Program-made: the position numbers and the translations under genes | Shown: in pieces, positions 4,130-15,013 of the stretch | Layout: the number at the start of each line of letters is the position of its first letter | How positions within the stretch are numbered: position 1 is the stretch's first letter | The notes under the pieces: model-generated | Seen by the model: only the letters and a program-made list of their open reading frames with translations | Told to the model about the DNA's origin: nothing | Database searches by the model: none | NCBI GenBank assembly: GCA_905480575.1 | Contig: CAJQQZ010000054.1 | Span: 31,210-95,209, forward strand | Origin: an uncultured Alphaproteobacteria bacterium | Lineage (GTDB): Bacteria; Pseudomonadota; Alphaproteobacteria; UBA7985; CAJQQZ01 | DNA length: 64,000 bases | Direction: 5' to 3'

Positions 4130-5023
4130 TTGAGCAATAGAAGACAAATCGCACTGATTGGATTTGGGGAAGCGGCAACTGCCTTTGTTAAAGGCTGGGG
4201 CCAGCGCTTGAACGCTAATTTCTCCGCCTACGATATCAAGACCGAAACAGAGGCAAGCAAAGCTAGGATGCTAGTGAATTACGCTGAGCATTCTGTAACA
4301 GCTGGTTGGTCAAACGCAGAAGCGGTCGAAGGTAAAGAAGCAGTTTTTTCTTTTGTAACGGCCGACCAATCTTTGAAGGCTGCTGTGGCTACCGGAAACG
4401 CTATCGAGAAGGATGCCTTTTTCTTTGACTGTAACTCTTGTTCACCCGGTACAAAAAAACAAGCAGCGGCTTTTATCGAAGCAGCCGGTGGGCGCTACGT
4501 TGATGTTGCTGTCATGGCACCAGTCTATCCGGCGTTGAACAAAACACCAGTTTCAATCTGTGGACCCCATGCGACGGAGGCCTTTGAACTCATGACGGCT
4601 TTGGATATGAATCCAACCTTGGTTGAGGGCGGTGTTGGCGTCGCCTCATCTACTAAGATGGTTCGTTCCATCATGATGAAGGGGCTGGAGGCGCTGATGA
4701 TGGAATGTGTCCTCGCTGGTCGAAAGGCTGGTGTTGACCGTGCGGTTCTAGAGTCGCTTGAGAAAACCTACCCTGGGTTTGGCTGGCAGGAAAAAGCCGC
4801 CTACATGGCGGAACGTGTCATGGTCCATGGCAAACGTAGAGCAGCAGAAATGCGAGAAGTCACCAAGACGGTCGAAGAACTTGGCCTGGTCAGCCGCATG
4901 GCTCCAGCCACAGTTGATTGGCAACAGGCTATCGGTGATCTTGAATTGGATCCAGCGGAAGACGATTACCCTTCACGGGCAGATAGAATATTGCAGGCTC
5001 TGCAGCCTGACAAAGAAAGGTAA
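4130..5023 (+). CDS. NAD(P)-binding oxidoreductase, 6PGDH-N-like / DUF1932 family
   Basis: Probable TTG start. Rossmann motif IALIGFGEAATAF at the N-terminus. Lies 4 nt upstream of ligA. Confidence 0.6.
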   Translation: MSNRRQIALIGFGEAATAFVKGWGQRLNANFSAYDIKTETEASKARMLVNYAEHSVTAGWSNAEAVEGKEAVFSFVTADQSLKAAVATGNAIEKDAFFFDCNSCSPGTKKQAAAFIEAAGGRYVDVAVMAPVYPALNKTPVSICGPHATEAFELMTALDMNPTLVEGGVGVASSTKMVRSIMMKGLEALMMECVLAGRKAGVDRAVLESLEKTYPGFGWQEKAAYMAERVMVHGKRRAAEMREVTKTVEELGLVSRMAPATVDWQQAIGDLELDPAEDDYPSRADRILQALQPDKER

Positions 5024-5027
5024 AGAT

Positions 5028-5417
5028 ATGGCGAAAGAATATGAAGATATTCCGGGCACTTTTGTGTTTGACGCAGACCGATCCCGAGAGGGCTATCATC
5101 TCAACATGTTCTGTATTTCGTTGAGGTTGGCCGAAAATAGGGAGGCTTTTAAGGCTGATCCAGAAGCTTACATGGCTCTGTACCCAATGACGGACGCGCA
5201 ACGCCAAGCTGTTCGAGATCGAGCCTGGAACGGTATGTTGGAACTAGGCGGCAATATCTACTACACCGCCAAACTCGCAGCCAATGACGGCATCACTTTT
5301 CAGGAACTAGCCGCCAAAATGACCGGCATGGCCAGTGAAGAGTACAGAGACATGATGGTAAAGGGTGGCCGATCCATTGAAGGCAACCGATCCAAAATCG
5401 AATGGGAGAACAAATAG
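5028..5417 (+). CDS. ligA: Protocatechuate 4,5-dioxygenase alpha subunit (LigA)
   Basis: 129 aa ([14 protein letters not shown]…FKADPEAY…MTGM…EEY..MM..GGRS), collinear with LigA. The start lies inside a longer spurious track ORF (4758..5417). Confidence 0.85.
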
Positions 5418-11899: not shown

Positions 11900-13243
11900 G
11901 TGCTGAGCGTTCTGAAAACCTCCTCCTTCCGTCACCTGTTCATGGCTCAGGTTGTAGCCCTGCTTGGCACTGGTCTACTGACGGTAGCGCTTGGCTTGCT
12001 GGCTTATGAGTTGGCCGGCGACTCTGCAGGATTGGTTCTGGGCACGGCCTATACGATTAAGATGGTGGCTTATGTTGGTTTGGCACCTATTGCTGCTGTG
12101 GTCACCTCTCGGATGAACCGAAAATCGGTTTTGATTTGTGCGGACTTGTGCCGGGCAGGGGTGGCGCTATGTTTGCCTTTCATTGATGCGGTTTGGCAGA
12201 TCTATATATTGATCTTTGTGCTCCAAGCAGCTTCCGCCACCTTCACACCGACCTTCCAGGCGGTCATTCCCGATATTCTGAAAGATGAAAAAGACTACAC
12301 CAGCGCTTTATCACTTTCCCGCTTGGCCTATGACATCGAGAACTTAGTGTCCCCCGCTTTAGCCGGACTGTTACTCACGGTGATCTCGTTCCATTGGTTG
12401 TTCTTCGGCACAGTATTCGGGTTTGTCGTTTCTGCTTTGCTCGTGCTTGTAACTGTGATCCCCCCCTTGCTCAAAAAAGCAGAAGAAGGGACATTTTGGA
12501 ACCGTGTGACGCGCGGCAGTAAAATCTATCTCGCGACACCGAGGCTACGAGGTTTGCTTTCGCTGAATCTCGCCATTGCTGCGACAGGATCAATGGTACT
12601 CGTGAATACAATCGTCTTTGTTCGTTCTAGTTTCGAAGGGTCAGAGCAAGATGTCGCCATTGTCTTTGCTTGTTATGGTGCAGGTTCAATGATTGCGGCT
12701 TTTGCTCTGCCATCTGTGCTTGAGCGGATGCGCGATTGGCCAGTGATGATGGTCGGTGGCCTTGGATCGACGGTTGTCACTTTGACTTTTGCGCTGATCT
12801 TCTTGACCAAAGGATTGCCGAGTTGGCCGGTTTTTCTCGCTACTTGGGCTGTGCTTGGGCTATTGGGCTCCCTAGTGATGACACCCTCGGGTCGCTTGCT
12901 GCGCCGGTCGGCACACAGTGAAGATAGGCCTGCGCTCTTTGCGGCACAGTTCGCTCTCTCTCATGCCTGTTGGCTGATTGCTTATCCAACTGCGGGATAC
13001 TTCGGTAAATGGTTTGGATTGGGCGCGACGATGGTTGTTCTCGCTGGTCTCGCACTATTGGGTTGTTGGGCCGTCTACTGGTTTTGGCCATCAAAACCAC
13101 AACAGGTACTGGAACACAGCCATGATGACCTGCCACCTGACCATCCGCATTTGGCCGATGCTGTTGTCAAAAACGGAAGGAGCGTTCATAGACATTACTT
13201 TGTAATCGACGATGAACATCGCGTTTGGCCCACGCAGGGTTAG
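11900..13243 (+). CDS. MFS transporter with His-rich C-terminal tail
   Basis: Twelve predicted hydrophobic segments. GTG start 4 nt after the upstream stop, with AGGAG upstream. The track ORF 11738.. extends spuriously into the upstream gene. Confidence 0.7.
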   Translation: MLSVLKTSSFRHLFMAQVVALLGTGLLTVALGLLAYELAGDSAGLVLGTAYTIKMVAYVGLAPIAAVVTSRMNRKSVLICADLCRAGVALCLPFIDAVWQIYILIFVLQAASATFTPTFQAVIPDILKDEKDYTSALSLSRLAYDIENLVSPALAGLLLTVISFHWLFFGTVFGFVVSALLVLVTVIPPLLKKAEEGTFWNRVTRGSKIYLATPRLRGLLSLNLAIAATGSMVLVNTIVFVRSSFEGSEQDVAIVFACYGAGSMIAAFALPSVLERMRDWPVMMVGGLGSTVVTLTFALIFLTKGLPSWPVFLATWAVLGLLGSLVMTPSGRLLRRSAHSEDRPALFAAQFALSHACWLIAYPTAGYFGKWFGLGATMVVLAGLALLGCWAVYWFWPSKPQQVLEHSHDDLPPDHPHLADAVVKNGRSVHRHYFVIDDEHRVWPTQG

Positions 13244-13366
13244 TTTTTCAGATGAACGAAAACCTTTCTAGATTTGAAATTTGGATGCTGAGACCCCTAT
13301 CTTTTTAATGGTGCTTGCCAACAGTTGTTGGTAGTTTTTCAGTTTTCTTGAACAGGCGTCTAAACC

Positions 13367-15013
13367 ATGACTCATGAAGCGCGAACGGCACTACAAGATC
13401 TCGACACCGCGGATCTAAAACAAGAACTGAGCAGGGCACTCAATGCCGCTCACCTTTTGGTGGGGAACATGAAAAGCGAGTTGGCGGAACGCAAGCTCTC
13501 ACCGGCTGACCAATATGTCCGACACGGCTTTGCTTGGTACGCCGCCTATGTTGAAACATTGGCCGCAACATTTCTTTGGATGGAAGAATTGGAGGCCAGT
13601 GGTCGCTTGGGCCGACTAGAGCGGCTTATTGGGATAGCGCTATTCGGTGATTATCTTACCCAATTGGCTCACGGTATTGCCATGAGCCAGGACGAGGTGA
13701 TTAGACCGGAAAGGCTTGGCTCGACTGAGGCCATGACTGCTTATCTTGCGACAGAATCGGTTCAGGCTTGTCGTCAATCTAGTACCGCTGATCTTGCCAA
13801 AGAAATCGTCGATCTTTGTGCTGACCAAGGTGCTTATGGCAACCAGGGACTGGACGAAACCTTTGCAATGATTGCTGATCAATTCCACGCTTTCGTTGAT
13901 GAAAATGTGAGTGAGCATGCGCAAAGTTGGCACTTAGAAAACCAGTTGATCCCAGACGGCCTGGTTCGCCAGCTCGCTGATCTCGGCGTCTTTGGTTTGA
14001 CGATTAGCGAGGACTTTGGCGGCACAGGTCTTGGCAAATTGGCTATGTGTATTGTGACCGAAGAGCTGTCGCGCGGTTATATCGGTGTTGGCAGTTTGGG
14101 CACCCGCTCAGAGATCGCAGGTGAACTTATCCAGATTGGTGGGACAGAAGAACAAAAGGCCAAGTACTTGCCAGCTATTGCATCTGGTGAAATTTTGCCC
14201 GTGGCCGTTTTTACGGAGCCTAACACTGGGTCTGACTTGGCATCGCTTCGAACAAGAGCGGAGAAGATTGACGGTCGTTACAAAATAACTGGTAACAAAA
14301 CCTGGATTACGCACGCCGGTCGTTCAGACCTTATGACTTTGCTGGTACGGACAAATCCGGATGAGCCAGGTCATCGCGGTCTGACGATGCTGTTGGCAGA
14401 AAAACAACGCGGCACGGATGAAGAACCTTTCCCAACGCCTGGAATGTCTGGAGGAGAAATTCATGTTCTCGGCTATCGCGGCATGAAGGAATATGAAATT
14501 GCTTTTGACGGGTTTGAGGTTCCAATAAACGCTGCCCTTGGCGGTGAAGAGGGTCAAGGCTTTCGCCAGTTGATGCAAACTTTCGAGGCAGCCCGTATTC
14601 AAACCGCCGCTCGTGCCATGGGCGTAGCCGTCAACGCAATGGAAGTATCCTTCGCTTACGCCCAAGACCGTGTCCAATTCGGCAAACCGATCATCGAGAA
14701 CGAACGCATTTACGGCAAGCTGGCGCGCATGGTTGTTGAGATCATGGGTGTACGTCAATTGACATACGCTGCCGCCCGCAAAAAAGACCAAGGCGGTCGT
14801 TGTGACGTGGAGGCGGGCATGGCCAAGTTGTTGGCGGCTCGACTGGCTTGGTCAGCGGCGGATAATGGTCTCCAGATTCATGGCGGCAATGGCTACTCTT
14901 TGGAATTCCCAATTTCCCGCATTCTTTGCGACGCACGCATTCTCAACATCTTCGAAGGTGCCGCTGAAATGCAAGCAGAGATCATAGCGCGTGGTTTGTT
15001 GCCGAAGATTTAA
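13367..15013 (+). CDS. Acyl-CoA dehydrogenase with an approximately 170-aa N-terminal extension
   Basis: ACAD core (FGLTISEDFGGTG, TEPNTGSDLASL, C-terminal IFEGAAEMQAEIIARG). 548 aa. Confidence 0.8.
   Translation: MTHEARTALQDLDTADLKQELSRALNAAHLLVGNMKSELAERKLSPADQYVRHGFAWYAAYVETLAATFLWMEELEASGRLGRLERLIGIALFGDYLTQLAHGIAMSQDEVIRPERLGSTEAMTAYLATESVQACRQSSTADLAKEIVDLCADQGAYGNQGLDETFAMIADQFHAFVDENVSEHAQSWHLENQLIPDGLVRQLADLGVFGLTISEDFGGTGLGKLAMCIVTEELSRGYIGVGSLGTRSEIAGELIQIGGTEEQKAKYLPAIASGEILPVAVFTEPNTGSDLASLRTRAEKIDGRYKITGNKTWITHAGRSDLMTLLVRTNPDEPGHRGLTMLLAEKQRGTDEEPFPTPGMSGGEIHVLGYRGMKEYEIAFDGFEVPINAALGGEEGQGFRQLMQTFEAARIQTAARAMGVAVNAMEVSFAYAQDRVQFGKPIIENERIYGKLARMVVEIMGVRQLTYAAARKKDQGGRCDVEAGMAKLLAARLAWSAADNGLQIHGGNGYSLEFPISRILCDARILNIFEGAAEMQAEIIARGLLPKI

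What the first reader, a model, noticed from the sequence alone, without database searches (positions are those of the whole stretch)
4130..15013. Single tightly packed operon joining PCA 4,5-cleavage genes, the dehalogenase and CoA-dependent beta-oxidation-type enzymes
Gaps and overlaps run as follows: DUF1932 oxidoreductase, 4 nt, ligA, overlap, ligB, 6 nt, ligC, 23-nt overlap, rdhA-fusion, 80 nt, crotonase, 18 nt, isochorismatase-like hydrolase, 4 nt, MFS, 123 nt, acyl-CoA dehydrogenase. This spacing implies co-transcription. It fits a pathway in which a halogenated phenylpropanoid or hydroxybenzoate is imported by the MFS, side-chain-shortened via CoA thioesters, reductively dehalogenated, and ring-cleaved by LigAB. 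No CoA ligase or PobA-type hydroxylase lies in the window, so the exact substrate is open.
Basis: inference. Interest (0 to 1): 0.7.

Follow-up and report, generated by a model that had tools for sequence, protein, structure and literature searches.

The report
Debromination-plus-ring-cleavage module beside unrelated housekeeping genes
The gene run is real, but only its first half (a ring-cleavage gene set followed by a self-powered dehalogenase) forms a coherent unit, one already known from a herbicide-degrading plasmid. The "beta-oxidation" genes behind it are unrelated housekeeping genes.

Summary
The gene order and spacing are confirmed, with one likely correction: rdhA most likely starts at TTG 7215, 1 nt after ligC, not at 7191.

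DUF1932-ligA-ligB-ligC-rdhA (4130-10376) is a coherent module next to a LysR regulator. A divergent galB-ligK-galD-ligI set completes protocatechuate (PCA) 4,5-cleavage. The dehalogenase is a self-sufficient catabolic RdhA-reductase fusion. It is about 70% identical to many marine alphaproteobacterial enzymes and 50% to BhbA, and its NpRdhA catalytic residues are conserved.

The family's founding example already has this layout. Comamonas plasmid pBHB carries pobA-ligA-ligB-bhbB-bhbA on one strand.

The unified CoA pathway is not supported:
- The "acyl-CoA dehydrogenase" is (2S)-methylsuccinyl-CoA dehydrogenase of the ethylmalonyl-CoA pathway (PDB 6ES9, E 1.9e-183, specificity residues conserved).
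- The "isochorismatase-like hydrolase" is nicotinamidase PncA.
- The MFS transporter resembles exporters, not aromatic-acid importers.
- Crotonase orthologues sit in other contexts elsewhere.

Synteny shows rdhA is a lineage-specific addition to a conserved DUF1932-ligABC module. Only 1 of 80 rdhA loci shares the layout. A Rhodobacteraceae relative has the same module without rdhA. None of 80 mcd loci has orthologues of these neighbours.

Verdict: a new member of a known kind, of modest interest. Co-transcription is untested.

The parts
3..212 (-). 5' end of ligI (2-pyrone-4,6-dicarboxylate hydrolase), cut by the window edge
   Evidence: The first 70 residues are 89% identical to the Amidohydro_2 gene upstream of galD in relative L081.
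217..1278 (-). galD/ligU, 4-oxalomesaconate tautomerase (PrpF family)
   Evidence: NCBIfam NF033377, 525 bits against a cut-off of 440. The start is set by analogy with L081 and L088 gene calls.
1271..1942 (-). ligK/galC, 4-carboxy-4-hydroxy-2-oxoadipate aldolase
   Evidence: TIGR02798, 371 bits against a cut-off of 304.5.
1942..2676 (-). PIG-L family protein, probably a GalB-type 4-oxalomesaconate hydratase
   Evidence: Pfam PIG-L on the 97%-identical L081 orthologue. Conserved next to ligK and galD in L007, L096 and L180. The GalB role is my own knowledge of Pseudomonas putida GalB, not tested here.
2756..2770 (.). Candidate LysR box (T-N11-A type) in the divergent galB/lysR promoter region
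   Evidence: ATAAGTTTTGGCTAT lies in a block identical in the window, L081 and L001. Its function is inferred.
2806..4056 (+). PcaQ-like LysR regulator with two N-terminal HTH_1 domains
   Evidence: Two HTH_1 stretches plus LysR_substrate in Pfam. Best NCBIfam hit is PcaQ, below cut-off. Thalassospira L096 shows the same two HTH_1 stretches; L179 and L180 encode 408-410 aa LysR homologues at the same position.
4040..4054 (.). Palindrome ATTCA-N5-TGAAT, 76 nt upstream of DUF1932; candidate LysR activation site
   Evidence: The only perfect copy in 64 kb. The arms are conserved and the spacer varies in L081 and L001. Its function is inferred.
4130..5023 (+). DUF1932 / NAD(P)-binding oxidoreductase, a conserved but uncharacterised companion of ligAB and OMA-pathway genes
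   Evidence: Pfam DUF1932 plus NAD_binding_2. Thirteen of the top 120 homologues are fused to LigA. Contexts L096, L097, L179, L180 and L007.
5028..5417 (+). ligA, protocatechuate 4,5-dioxygenase alpha subunit
   Evidence: TIGR02792 155 bits (cut-off 108.6) and NF009917 177 bits (cut-off 173). 56% identical to pBHB LigA.
5417..6259 (+). ligB, class III extradiol dioxygenase beta subunit
   Evidence: NF009903, 498 bits against a cut-off of 317. 60% identical to pBHB LigB.
6266..7213 (+). ligC-type dehydrogenase (Gfo/Idh/MocA with OxRdtase_C); presumed 4-carboxy-2-hydroxymuconate semialdehyde (CHMS) dehydrogenase
   Evidence: Pfam PF19858 (294 bits) plus PF01408. Follows ligB in L097 and L180. 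The CHMS dehydrogenase role is inferred.
7215..10376 (+). Self-sufficient catabolic reductive dehalogenase: RdhA fused to a phthalate-dioxygenase-reductase-like domain
   Evidence: TIGR02486, 209 bits against a cut-off of 160. NpRdhA structures 4RAS and 6ZXU at E about 1e-149, and phthalate dioxygenase reductase 2PIA at 2.5e-54 on the C-terminal third. NpRdhA Y426, K488, R552, S422 and M423 are conserved. 50% identical to BhbA over its full length.
10456..11256 (+). Crotonase/enoyl-CoA hydratase of the PRK09245 subfamily; substrate unknown
   Evidence: NF006699, 407 bits against a cut-off of 354. Orthologues in other alphaproteobacteria lie in different clusters.
11275..11895 (+). pncA, nicotinamidase/pyrazinamidase (NAD salvage)
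   Evidence: NF008623 equivalog, 235 bits against a cut-off of 174.
11900..13243 (+). MFS transporter of the DHA3/EntS-like (exporter-type) group
   Evidence: Pfam MFS_1 and MFS_3. Best NCBIfam matches are TIGR00900 (H+ antiporter), EntS, Mef(A) and BcbE. No aromatic-acid importer model matched.
13367..15013 (+). mcd, (2S)-methylsuccinyl-CoA dehydrogenase of the ethylmalonyl-CoA pathway
   Evidence: PDB 6ES9 at E 1.9e-183 across residues 16-545, including the N-terminal extension. PdMCD Arg252, Arg376, Arg421, Glu535, Ser248, Thr418, Tyr375, Lys379 and Glu380 are all conserved.

Best explanation
The 11-kb co-directional run is a composite.

Its first half, DUF1932-ligA-ligB-ligC-rdhA (4130-10376), is a catabolic module, probably controlled by the adjacent LysR regulator. 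With the divergent galB-ligK-galD-ligI genes it forms a complete route. An NADPH-driven, oxygen-tolerant cobalamin dehalogenase removes bromine or iodine next to the hydroxyl group of a hydroxybenzoate-type compound. The resulting protocatechuate (PCA) is then opened by LigAB, oxidised by LigC, and taken through 4-oxalomesaconate (OMA) to pyruvate and oxaloacetate. If the dehalogenase product is 4-hydroxybenzoate, a PobA-type hydroxylase encoded outside this window must supply PCA.

This is the marine, chromosomal counterpart of the bhb cluster on Comamonas sp. 7D-2 plasmid pBHB.

The second half is functionally unrelated housekeeping: a crotonase, nicotinamidase pncA, an exporter-type MFS transporter and methylsuccinyl-CoA dehydrogenase mcd. 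These genes merely follow on the same strand. Crotonase-pncA-MFS may be read through from the upstream promoter. mcd most likely has its own promoter.

Shown: gene identities, spacing and synteny. Inferred: substrate, regulation and transcript boundaries.
For: Dehalogenase identity:
- RDH model above cut-off, two 4Fe-4S motifs and a reductase domain like phthalate dioxygenase reductase (PDR) with a 2Fe-2S site.
- NpRdhA catalytic and substrate residues conserved.
- Characterised relatives debrominate 3,5-dibromo- and 3-bromo-4-hydroxybenzoate using NADPH (PMC10463259).

Complete 4,5-cleavage set:
- ligAB, ligC, galD, ligK, a PIG-L hydratase and the ligI stub.

Known precedent:
- pBHB carries a PobA-like gene, then ligA, ligB, tctC and bhbA, tightly packed on one strand.

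Independent links between rdhA and PCA catabolism:
- Oricola L007.
- pobA within 10 kb of rdhA in 5 of 80 loci, directly downstream in 3.

Module boundary:
- L180 has galB<-|LysR->DUF1932->ligA->ligB->ligC and then unrelated genes. L097 has a DUF1932-LigA fusion, then ligB, ligC and an aldo-keto reductase.

Unrelated second half:
- mcd and pncA and the MFS.
- Crotonase contexts.
- 0 of 80 mcd loci carry orthologues of these neighbours.

Candidate LysR boxes lie upstream of both divergent units.
Against: - No transcript data exist. Gaps of 76-79, 18 and 4 nt and the lack of a convincing terminator after rdhA are compatible with read-through into crotonase-pncA-MFS.
- No pobA and no dedicated uptake system lie in the window, so the route from dehalogenated product to PCA is incomplete as encoded here.
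- The crotonase has no assigned substrate. In two lineages its orthologue sits beside an ADP-forming acyl-CoA ligase and a TRAP transporter, so a role in some aromatic-acid-CoA pathway is not excluded.
- The rdhA-lig linkage is seen in only one lineage among 80 species-level loci.
Confidence: 0.75

Rival explanations
1. All ten genes form one operon for one pathway. The MFS imports a halogenated phenylpropanoid, the crotonase and ACAD shorten its side chain through CoA thioesters, RdhA dehalogenates it, and LigAB cleaves the ring.
For: - The genes are co-directional with mostly short gaps, and the order is kept in L081.
- Crotonase orthologues sit beside an ADP-forming acyl-CoA ligase and TRAP transporter in Stappiaceae and Leisingera.
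- JtRdhA also accepts 3-bromo-4-hydroxyphenylacetate.
Against: - The ACAD is an orthologue-level match to methylsuccinyl-CoA dehydrogenase, with the arginine triad for a C4-dicarboxyl-CoA substrate.
- The hydrolase is PncA.
- The MFS matches exporter families only.
- No AMP-forming CoA-ligase signature occurs in the window, and no thiolase or hydratase-lyase is identifiable in the cluster.
- None of these four genes accompanies rdhA in 78 other lineages. None accompanies mcd in 80 loci or DUF1932-ligABC in L180 and L097.
Confidence: 0.05
2. rdhA is a functionally independent passenger that landed after ligC by chance. Its substrate and physiology have nothing to do with PCA cleavage.
For: - 78 of 80 rdhA loci have no lig or OMA-pathway genes within 10 kb, and rdhA contexts are very variable (LysR, molybdoenzyme subunits, TRAP and others).
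- The DUF1932-ligABC module exists without rdhA.
Against: - The ligC-rdhA junction is a 1-nt gap or an overlap, with no promoter space.
- It is retained across about 15% protein divergence.
- Composition is homogeneous, and there are no IS elements, repeats or tRNA genes at the borders.
- The same pairing evolved separately on pBHB and with OMA-pathway genes in Oricola.
- pobA adjacency in other lineages ties the family to the hydroxybenzoate-to-PCA route.
Confidence: 0.1
3. The dehalogenase acts on halogenated catechols such as 5-bromoprotocatechuate (or halogenated gallate) and releases PCA directly to LigAB. No PobA is then needed.
For: - No pobA lies in 64 kb.
- rdhA sits immediately after the genes that consume PCA.
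- Characterised relatives need only a halogen ortho to a phenolic hydroxyl.
- The Oricola cluster couples rdhA directly to an extradiol dioxygenase and OMA-pathway genes, again with no pobA within 10 kb.
Against: - No enzyme of this family has been reported with a halocatechol substrate in the papers read.
- pobA may simply lie elsewhere in the genome.
- In five other lineages pobA lies within 10 kb of rdhA, directly downstream in three, and pBHB carries a PobA-like gene in its cluster. Both point to 4-hydroxybenzoate as the usual product.
Confidence: 0.1

Closest known systems
bhb cluster of Comamonas sp. 7D-2 plasmid pBHB (bromoxynil / 3,5-dibromo-4-hydroxybenzoate catabolism; NC_021077)
   Same: A self-sufficient RdhA-reductase fusion lies downstream of, and co-directional with, ligA-ligB in a tightly packed row. 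Full-length homology: RdhA 50%, LigB 60%, LigA 56% identical. The logic is catabolic, not respiratory (PMC10463259).
   Different: - pBHB has a PobA-like hydroxylase gene just upstream and a TctC-type binding protein (bhbB) between ligB and bhbA. The window has neither.
- The window has DUF1932 and ligC in the row, and the full lower pathway is divergently encoded.
- pBHB is an IS-rich IncP plasmid from contaminated soil. The window looks chromosomal and comes from an uncultured marine alphaproteobacterium.
Self-sufficient catabolic reductive dehalogenases (JtRdhA of Jhaorihella thermophila; NpRdhA of Nitratireductor pacificus as the truncated form)
   Same: - Duplicated cobalamin-binding fold region, two 4Fe-4S motifs and a PDR-like C-terminal domain.
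- Catalytic Tyr/Lys/Arg conserved.
- No twin-arginine signal and no rdhB gene.
- About 70% identical to more than 100 marine alphaproteobacterial homologues.
   Different: - The position equivalent to NpRdhA Ala419 (a specificity position targeted by mutagenesis) is Cys in the window and Val in most homologues.
- The substrate is untested.
- The genomic context next to ligC is unusual for the family: 1 of 80 loci.
PCA 4,5-cleavage / gallate (lig, pmd, gal) pathway clusters
   Same: ligAB, ligC, ligI, an OMA tautomerase and the ligK aldolase are all present, with a LysR regulator.
   Different: - The hydratase is a PIG-L (GalB-type) protein, not an amidohydrolase LigJ.
- A DUF1932 oxidoreductase leads the ligABC row and is fused to LigA in other bacteria.
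- The LysR carries two HTH domains.
(2S)-methylsuccinyl-CoA dehydrogenase (PdMCD, PDB 6ES9), ethylmalonyl-CoA pathway
   Same: Full-length match including the roughly 170-residue N-terminal extension. The arginine triad and catalytic glutamate are conserved.
   Different: Nothing notable. Its position behind a catabolic module is lineage-specific.

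Membership tests
Self-sufficient catabolic reductive dehalogenase (BhbA/JtRdhA type) | Reductive dehalogenase catalytic domain | tested here: met
   TIGR02486, 209 bits against a cut-off of 160. NpRdhA structures at E about 1e-149 over residues 166-726.
Self-sufficient catabolic reductive dehalogenase (BhbA/JtRdhA type) | Two 4Fe-4S cluster motifs | tested here: met
   Fer4_7 and Fer4_16 hits at 549-608. CESCNKCARECP and CGRCMKTCPW are visible in the translation, and the cysteines are invariant in 15 homologues.
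Self-sufficient catabolic reductive dehalogenase (BhbA/JtRdhA type) | Catalytic Tyr-Lys dyad and the Arg/Ser that bind the phenolic hydroxyl (NpRdhA Y426, K488, R552, S422) | tested here: met
   By counting along the HMMER alignment to 6ZXU, these map to Y463, K525, R589 and S459 (numbering from 7191). They are invariant in alignment A1. Their roles are taken from PMC7565698.
Self-sufficient catabolic reductive dehalogenase (BhbA/JtRdhA type) | C-terminal phthalate-dioxygenase-reductase-like domain (flavin, NAD(P)H and 2Fe-2S sites) | tested here: met
   2PIA at E 2.5e-54 over residues 742-1053. Fer2 and DmmA-like_N Pfam hits.
Self-sufficient catabolic reductive dehalogenase (BhbA/JtRdhA type) | No TAT signal and no rdhB membrane anchor gene | tested here: met
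   The N-terminus MKFFSSKNRPVHLGG... has no twin-arginine motif. The flanking genes are ligC and a crotonase.
Self-sufficient catabolic reductive dehalogenase (BhbA/JtRdhA type) | NADPH-dependent dehalogenation of ortho-halogenated phenolic compounds | not testable with these tools
   Needs enzyme assays.
bhb-type catabolic cluster (pBHB) | rdhA co-directional with, and directly downstream of, PCA 4,5-dioxygenase genes | tested here: met
   Window order is ligA-ligB-ligC-rdhA with 1-6 nt gaps. pBHB order is ligA-ligB-tctC-bhbA.
bhb-type catabolic cluster (pBHB) | 4-hydroxybenzoate 3-hydroxylase (PobA-like) in the cluster | tested here: not met
   A PobA-like FAD_binding_3 ORF lies upstream of ligA on pBHB. 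tblastn found no homologue in the 64-kb window.
bhb-type catabolic cluster (pBHB) | Dedicated uptake component (BhbB, a TctC-type binding protein) | tested here: not met
   No BhbB homologue in the window. The only transporter in the run is an exporter-type MFS.
PCA 4,5-cleavage pathway | LigAB dioxygenase, LigC dehydrogenase, LigI hydrolase, OMA tautomerase, OMA hydratase and CHA aldolase | tested here: met
   - NCBIfam hits above cut-off for LigA, LigB, the tautomerase and the aldolase.
- LigC-type Pfam architecture.
- ligI stub at 3-212.
- The hydratase is assigned only by family (PIG-L) and conserved position.
CoA-dependent (beta-oxidative) aromatic side-chain shortening pathway | Aromatic acid CoA ligase | tested here: not met
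   No PS00455 AMP-binding signature in six frames of the window. None of the larger ORFs scanned is a CoA ligase.
CoA-dependent (beta-oxidative) aromatic side-chain shortening pathway | Acyl-CoA dehydrogenase acting on the aromatic acyl-CoA | tested here: not met
   The ACAD is methylsuccinyl-CoA dehydrogenase.
CoA-dependent (beta-oxidative) aromatic side-chain shortening pathway | Hydroxycinnamoyl-CoA hydratase or hydratase-lyase | tested here: inconclusive
   The crotonase belongs to the PRK09245 subfamily, with no assigned substrate. No entry named as a hydroxycinnamoyl-CoA hydratase-lyase appears among the 60 best PDB matches. Orthologue contexts vary.
(2S)-methylsuccinyl-CoA dehydrogenase | N-terminal extension of about 170 residues, plus the Arg252/Arg376/Arg421 triad and catalytic Glu535 | tested here: met
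   The alignment to 6ES9 covers residues 16-545, and all listed residues are identical. Their roles are taken from PMC5798300.
(2S)-methylsuccinyl-CoA dehydrogenase | Other ethylmalonyl-CoA pathway genes present in the genome | not tested
   Only a 64-kb window is available.
Single operon (one transcript spanning 4130-15013) | Co-transcription across every junction | not testable with these tools
   The consensus promoter and terminator scan is at background level. Intergenic folds are not significant. Only spacing and conservation arguments are available.

The most novel reading that the evidence does not exclude
Two linked ideas remain open.

1. In this marine lineage the dehalogenase may have been recruited onto the end of a ligABC operon to act on naturally brominated catechols or gallates. 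It would then deliver PCA straight to LigAB without any PobA step.

2. The leading DUF1932 oxidoreductase may be a so-far unrecognised enzymatic component of the 4,5-cleavage/OMA pathway. It is fused to LigA in other bacteria and repeatedly paired with a two-HTH LysR regulator.
Probability: 0.12. Interest if true: 0.55.

Novelty: new member of a known kind. Interest (0 to 1): 0.3.

Why it matters
This places an oxygen-tolerant, NADPH-driven debrominase directly behind ring-cleavage genes in an uncultured marine alphaproteobacterium whose contigs recur in several marine metagenome assemblies. That supports the view that these enzymes feed natural organobromine compounds into central carbon metabolism, as already shown for a soil plasmid.

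The practical value is modest:
- It gives a chromosomal, natural-habitat example of the bhb design.
- It corrects an over-extended pathway model. The CoA enzymes are housekeeping genes.
- It flags two uncharacterised but conserved partners of PCA 4,5-cleavage clusters, the DUF1932 oxidoreductase and a LysR with a duplicated DNA-binding domain. These may merit their own study.

Tried and rejected
- Consensus promoter and terminator scan of 2500-16500: counts at shuffle level, nothing usable.
- RNA folding of the intergenic spacers: z-scores from -1.3 to +0.8, and no convincing intrinsic terminator after rdhA, the MFS gene or mcd.
- Rfam scan of 1-22000, including for a cobalamin riboswitch: no hit.
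- Signs of recent insertion around rdhA: only chance-level repeats, no tRNA gene, and homogeneous GC and GC3.
- Perfect palindrome ATAGG-N5-CCTAT at 2722-2736 as the LysR box: not conserved in relatives, and near-matches in the window are at chance level. The neighbouring conserved ATAAGTTTTGGCTAT is preferred.
- Testing whether crotonase-pncA-MFS-mcd is a conserved block elsewhere: it is not.
- Assigning a substrate to the crotonase from its orthologues' neighbours: the ADP-forming ligase beside it scores far below every NCBIfam equivalog cut-off, so this stays unresolved.
- Naming the source organism from protein cluster records: no names attached.
- Literature search for DUF1932 in aromatic catabolism: nothing relevant in the held library.

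Full report
**Observation**

I read each junction from the sequence:

| Junction | Spacing |
|---|---|
| DUF1932 / ligA | 4 nt |
| ligA / ligB | overlap of 1 nt (GTG 5417) or 16 nt (ATG 5402) |
| ligB / ligC | 6 nt |
| rdhA / crotonase | 76-79 nt |
| crotonase / hydrolase | 18 nt |
| hydrolase / MFS | 4 nt |
| MFS / ACAD | 123 nt |

One detail probably needs correcting. The 23-nt ligC/rdhA overlap assumes TTG 7191. Most of the 80 homologous loci, and NpRdhA, align only from residue 9. In the closest relative the longest rdhA ORF starts at the equivalent TTG, 2 nt after ligC. TTG 7215, 1 nt after the ligC stop, is therefore the likelier start. The run ends at a convergent Rieske oxygenase gene.

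**What the genes are: the upstream half**

- ligA and ligB pass NCBIfam cut-offs for PCA 4,5-dioxygenase subunits. ligC has the LigC-type Gfo/Idh/MocA plus OxRdtase_C architecture.
- Divergently upstream lie a PIG-L (GalB-type) hydratase candidate, the ligK aldolase and the 4-oxalomesaconate (OMA) tautomerase.
- The first 70 codons of ligI sit at 3-212 on the - strand, cut by the window edge.
- The PCA 4,5-cleavage route down to pyruvate and oxaloacetate is therefore complete.
- A PcaQ-like LysR with two HTH_1 domains sits between the two divergent units.
- A conserved T-N11-A-type sequence lies in the divergent promoter region (2756-2770).
- A unique palindrome, ATTCA-N5-TGAAT, lies 76 nt upstream of DUF1932. 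Its arms are conserved and its spacer varies in relatives.
- Both sequences are candidate regulator sites. This is inference.

**The dehalogenase**

The 1053-residue product has four defining parts:
- an RdhA catalytic domain (TIGR02486 above cut-off);
- two 4Fe-4S motifs;
- a C-terminal third like phthalate dioxygenase reductase (2PIA, E 2.5e-54);
- a strong match to the NpRdhA crystal structures (E about 1e-149).

By counting along that alignment, NpRdhA Tyr426, Lys488, Arg552, Ser422 and Met423 are all conserved, and they are invariant among 15 homologues. Their roles in proton delivery and in binding the phenolic hydroxyl come from PMC7565698.

The protein is about 70% identical to more than 100 marine alphaproteobacterial fusions and 50% identical over its full length to BhbA. 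Characterised members use NADPH, tolerate oxygen and debrominate or deiodinate ortho-halogenated phenolic acids and phenols (PMC10463259; PMC13101508). There is no TAT signal and no rdhB gene. It is a catabolic enzyme, not a respiratory one.

**The downstream half**

- **ACAD.** It matches PDB 6ES9 at E 1.9e-183 over residues 16-545, including the unusual N-terminal extension. 6ES9 is (2S)-methylsuccinyl-CoA dehydrogenase of the ethylmalonyl-CoA pathway (PMC5798300). Its arginine triad (252, 376, 421), its catalytic Glu535 and the residues that hold them in place are all identical in the window protein. This is a central-metabolism enzyme for a C5-dicarboxylic acid CoA ester, not an aromatic side-chain dehydrogenase.
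- **"Isochorismatase-like hydrolase".** It scores 235 bits against the NCBIfam nicotinamidase PncA equivalog, whose cut-off is 174.
- **MFS protein.** Its best matches are DHA3-type H+ antiporters and the exporters EntS, Mef and BcbE. No aromatic-acid importer model matched.
- **Crotonase.** It belongs to a very conserved 266-residue subfamily (PRK09245) without an assigned substrate.
- **What is missing.** The window has no PobA homologue and no AMP-binding CoA-ligase signature in any frame.

**Synteny**

- I examined 80 species-level genome loci that carry a fused rdhA.
  - Only L001, the closest relative (RdhA 85%), shares the lig-rdhA-crotonase-pncA-MFS order.
  - One other, Oricola L007, links rdhA to this pathway in a different way: GntR | rdhA-DUF1932-extradiol dioxygenase-galB-ligK-galD.
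  - The other 78 have variable neighbours.
- pobA lies within 10 kb of rdhA in 5 of the 80 loci and directly downstream in 3.
- The DUF1932-ligABC row exists without rdhA.
  - A Rhodobacteraceae MAG (L180) has galB<-|LysR->DUF1932->ligA->ligB->ligC, followed by unrelated genes.
  - L097 has a DUF1932-LigA fusion, then ligB, ligC and an aldo-keto reductase.
- Crotonase orthologues at 67-76% identity sit in other clusters.
- None of 80 metagenomic mcd loci carries the MFS, pncA, rdhA or lig genes, or a crotonase orthologue.
- A 42-kb metagenome contig from the sister lineage (L081) keeps the whole order, including mcd and the flanking genes. The arrangement therefore predates the split of the two lineages.
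- No mobile-element traces or compositional breaks flank rdhA.

**Comparison with what is known**

The family's founding example already shows the same design. On Comamonas sp. 7D-2 plasmid pBHB, a PobA-like gene, ligA, ligB, a TctC-type binding protein gene and bhbA lie tightly packed on one strand. The literature describes that cluster as taking bromoxynil to the LigAB ring-cleavage product (PMC10463259; PMC12219181).

The window differs from pBHB in four ways:
- It lacks pobA and the uptake gene.
- It includes DUF1932 and ligC in the row.
- It encodes the whole lower pathway divergently.
- It appears to be chromosomal and of marine origin.

**Conclusion**

DUF1932-ligABC-rdhA is best read as a LysR-controlled catabolic module in which reductive dehalogenation feeds PCA 4,5-cleavage. 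rdhA is a lineage-specific but functionally sensible addition to a conserved module.

The crotonase, pncA, MFS and mcd genes are unrelated housekeeping genes that happen to follow on the same strand. The proposed import and CoA-dependent side-chain shortening steps have no support.

Whether read-through transcription reaches crotonase-pncA-MFS cannot be decided here. The 123-nt spacer before mcd, whose 3' 85 nt are well conserved in L081, is the most likely transcript boundary. By contrast the rdhA-crotonase spacer is poorly conserved.

This is a new member of a known kind of system, and its interest is modest. The more open questions are the enzyme's real substrate in the absence of pobA, and the roles of DUF1932 and the two-HTH LysR.

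Noticed in passing
window 2806-4056; also L096 9994-11214 (-), L179 5540-6766, L180 1498-2730, L081 5470-6693: The LysR regulator carries two tandem HTH_1 DNA-binding domains ahead of a single substrate-binding domain (406-416 aa). Thalassospira L096 shows the same two HTH_1 stretches; homologues of the same length sit next to OMA-pathway genes in Amphritea (L179), a Rhodobacteraceae MAG (L180) and L081, so it is not a gene-calling artefact.
   Followed up: partly
window 4130-5023; proteins P0271, P0276, P0282, P0308, P0310, P0312, P0315, P0327, P0328, P0349, P0355, P0357, P0358; loci L096, L097, L179, L180: DUF1932 oxidoreductase homologues (55-60% identical) are fused to LigA in 13 of the 120 best hits. 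Elsewhere they sit beside the two-HTH LysR and galB-ligK-galD, even where no ligAB is nearby. This is a conserved, uncharacterised companion of the 4,5-cleavage/OMA pathway, and the held library has no relevant literature on it.
   Followed up: partly
L007 9192-17765 (Oricola sp. MAG): A second, differently built link between rdhA and the OMA pathway: GntR | rdhA -> DUF1932 -> catechol-2,3-dioxygenase-like VOC enzyme -> PIG-L hydratase -> ligK -> galD. It has no ligAB, ligC or ligI.
   Followed up: partly
L012 about 13581-14414, L014 about 13601-14389, L045 about 3405-4247: A PobA-like hydroxylase gene lies directly downstream of the fused rdhA in three separate lineages, and within 10 kb in two more (L053, L057). 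This supports 4-hydroxybenzoate as the usual product of this enzyme family.
   Followed up: no
window 4040-4054 and 2756-2770: ATTCA-N5-TGAAT overlaps the last codons of lysR and is the only perfect copy in the window. Its arms are conserved and its spacer varies in two relatives. ATAAGTTTTGGCTAT lies in a fully conserved block of the divergent promoter region. Both are candidate LysR sites.
   Followed up: partly
window 13241-13251 and 13332-13342: The 11-mer TAGTTTTTCAG occurs twice in the MFS-mcd spacer. The second copy and about 85 nt upstream of mcd are well conserved in L081, which suggests a regulatory region for mcd.
   Followed up: no
window 7215-10376, codon for residue 456 (numbering from 7191): The position equivalent to NpRdhA Ala419, which has been mutated to alter mono- versus di-halogen preference, is Cys here and Val in most marine homologues.
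   Followed up: no
window 25617-27122, 61808-63253, 54240-55955: Other aromatic- or aldehyde-related genes lie far from the cluster. They are an RPE65/carotenoid-cleavage-family oxygenase (lignostilbene-dioxygenase-like from memory), an HpaB-type two-component phenol hydroxylase (which could conceivably stand in for PobA) and an AFOR-type aldehyde:ferredoxin oxidoreductase.
   Followed up: no
L073 and L075 (both from one Candidatus Puniceispirillaceae MAG): Two separate contigs of the same MAG each carry a full-length fused rdhA (65-66% identical to the window's), so some marine lineages keep paralogues.
   Followed up: no
L081 19252-21995, compared with window 16209-16888: The sister lineage has a Transposase_mut gene, a small ORF and an amine-oxidase-like gene between the Rieske oxygenase and the cupin gene. 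The window instead has a YHS-domain gene there. This is a local rearrangement just outside the cluster.
   Followed up: no
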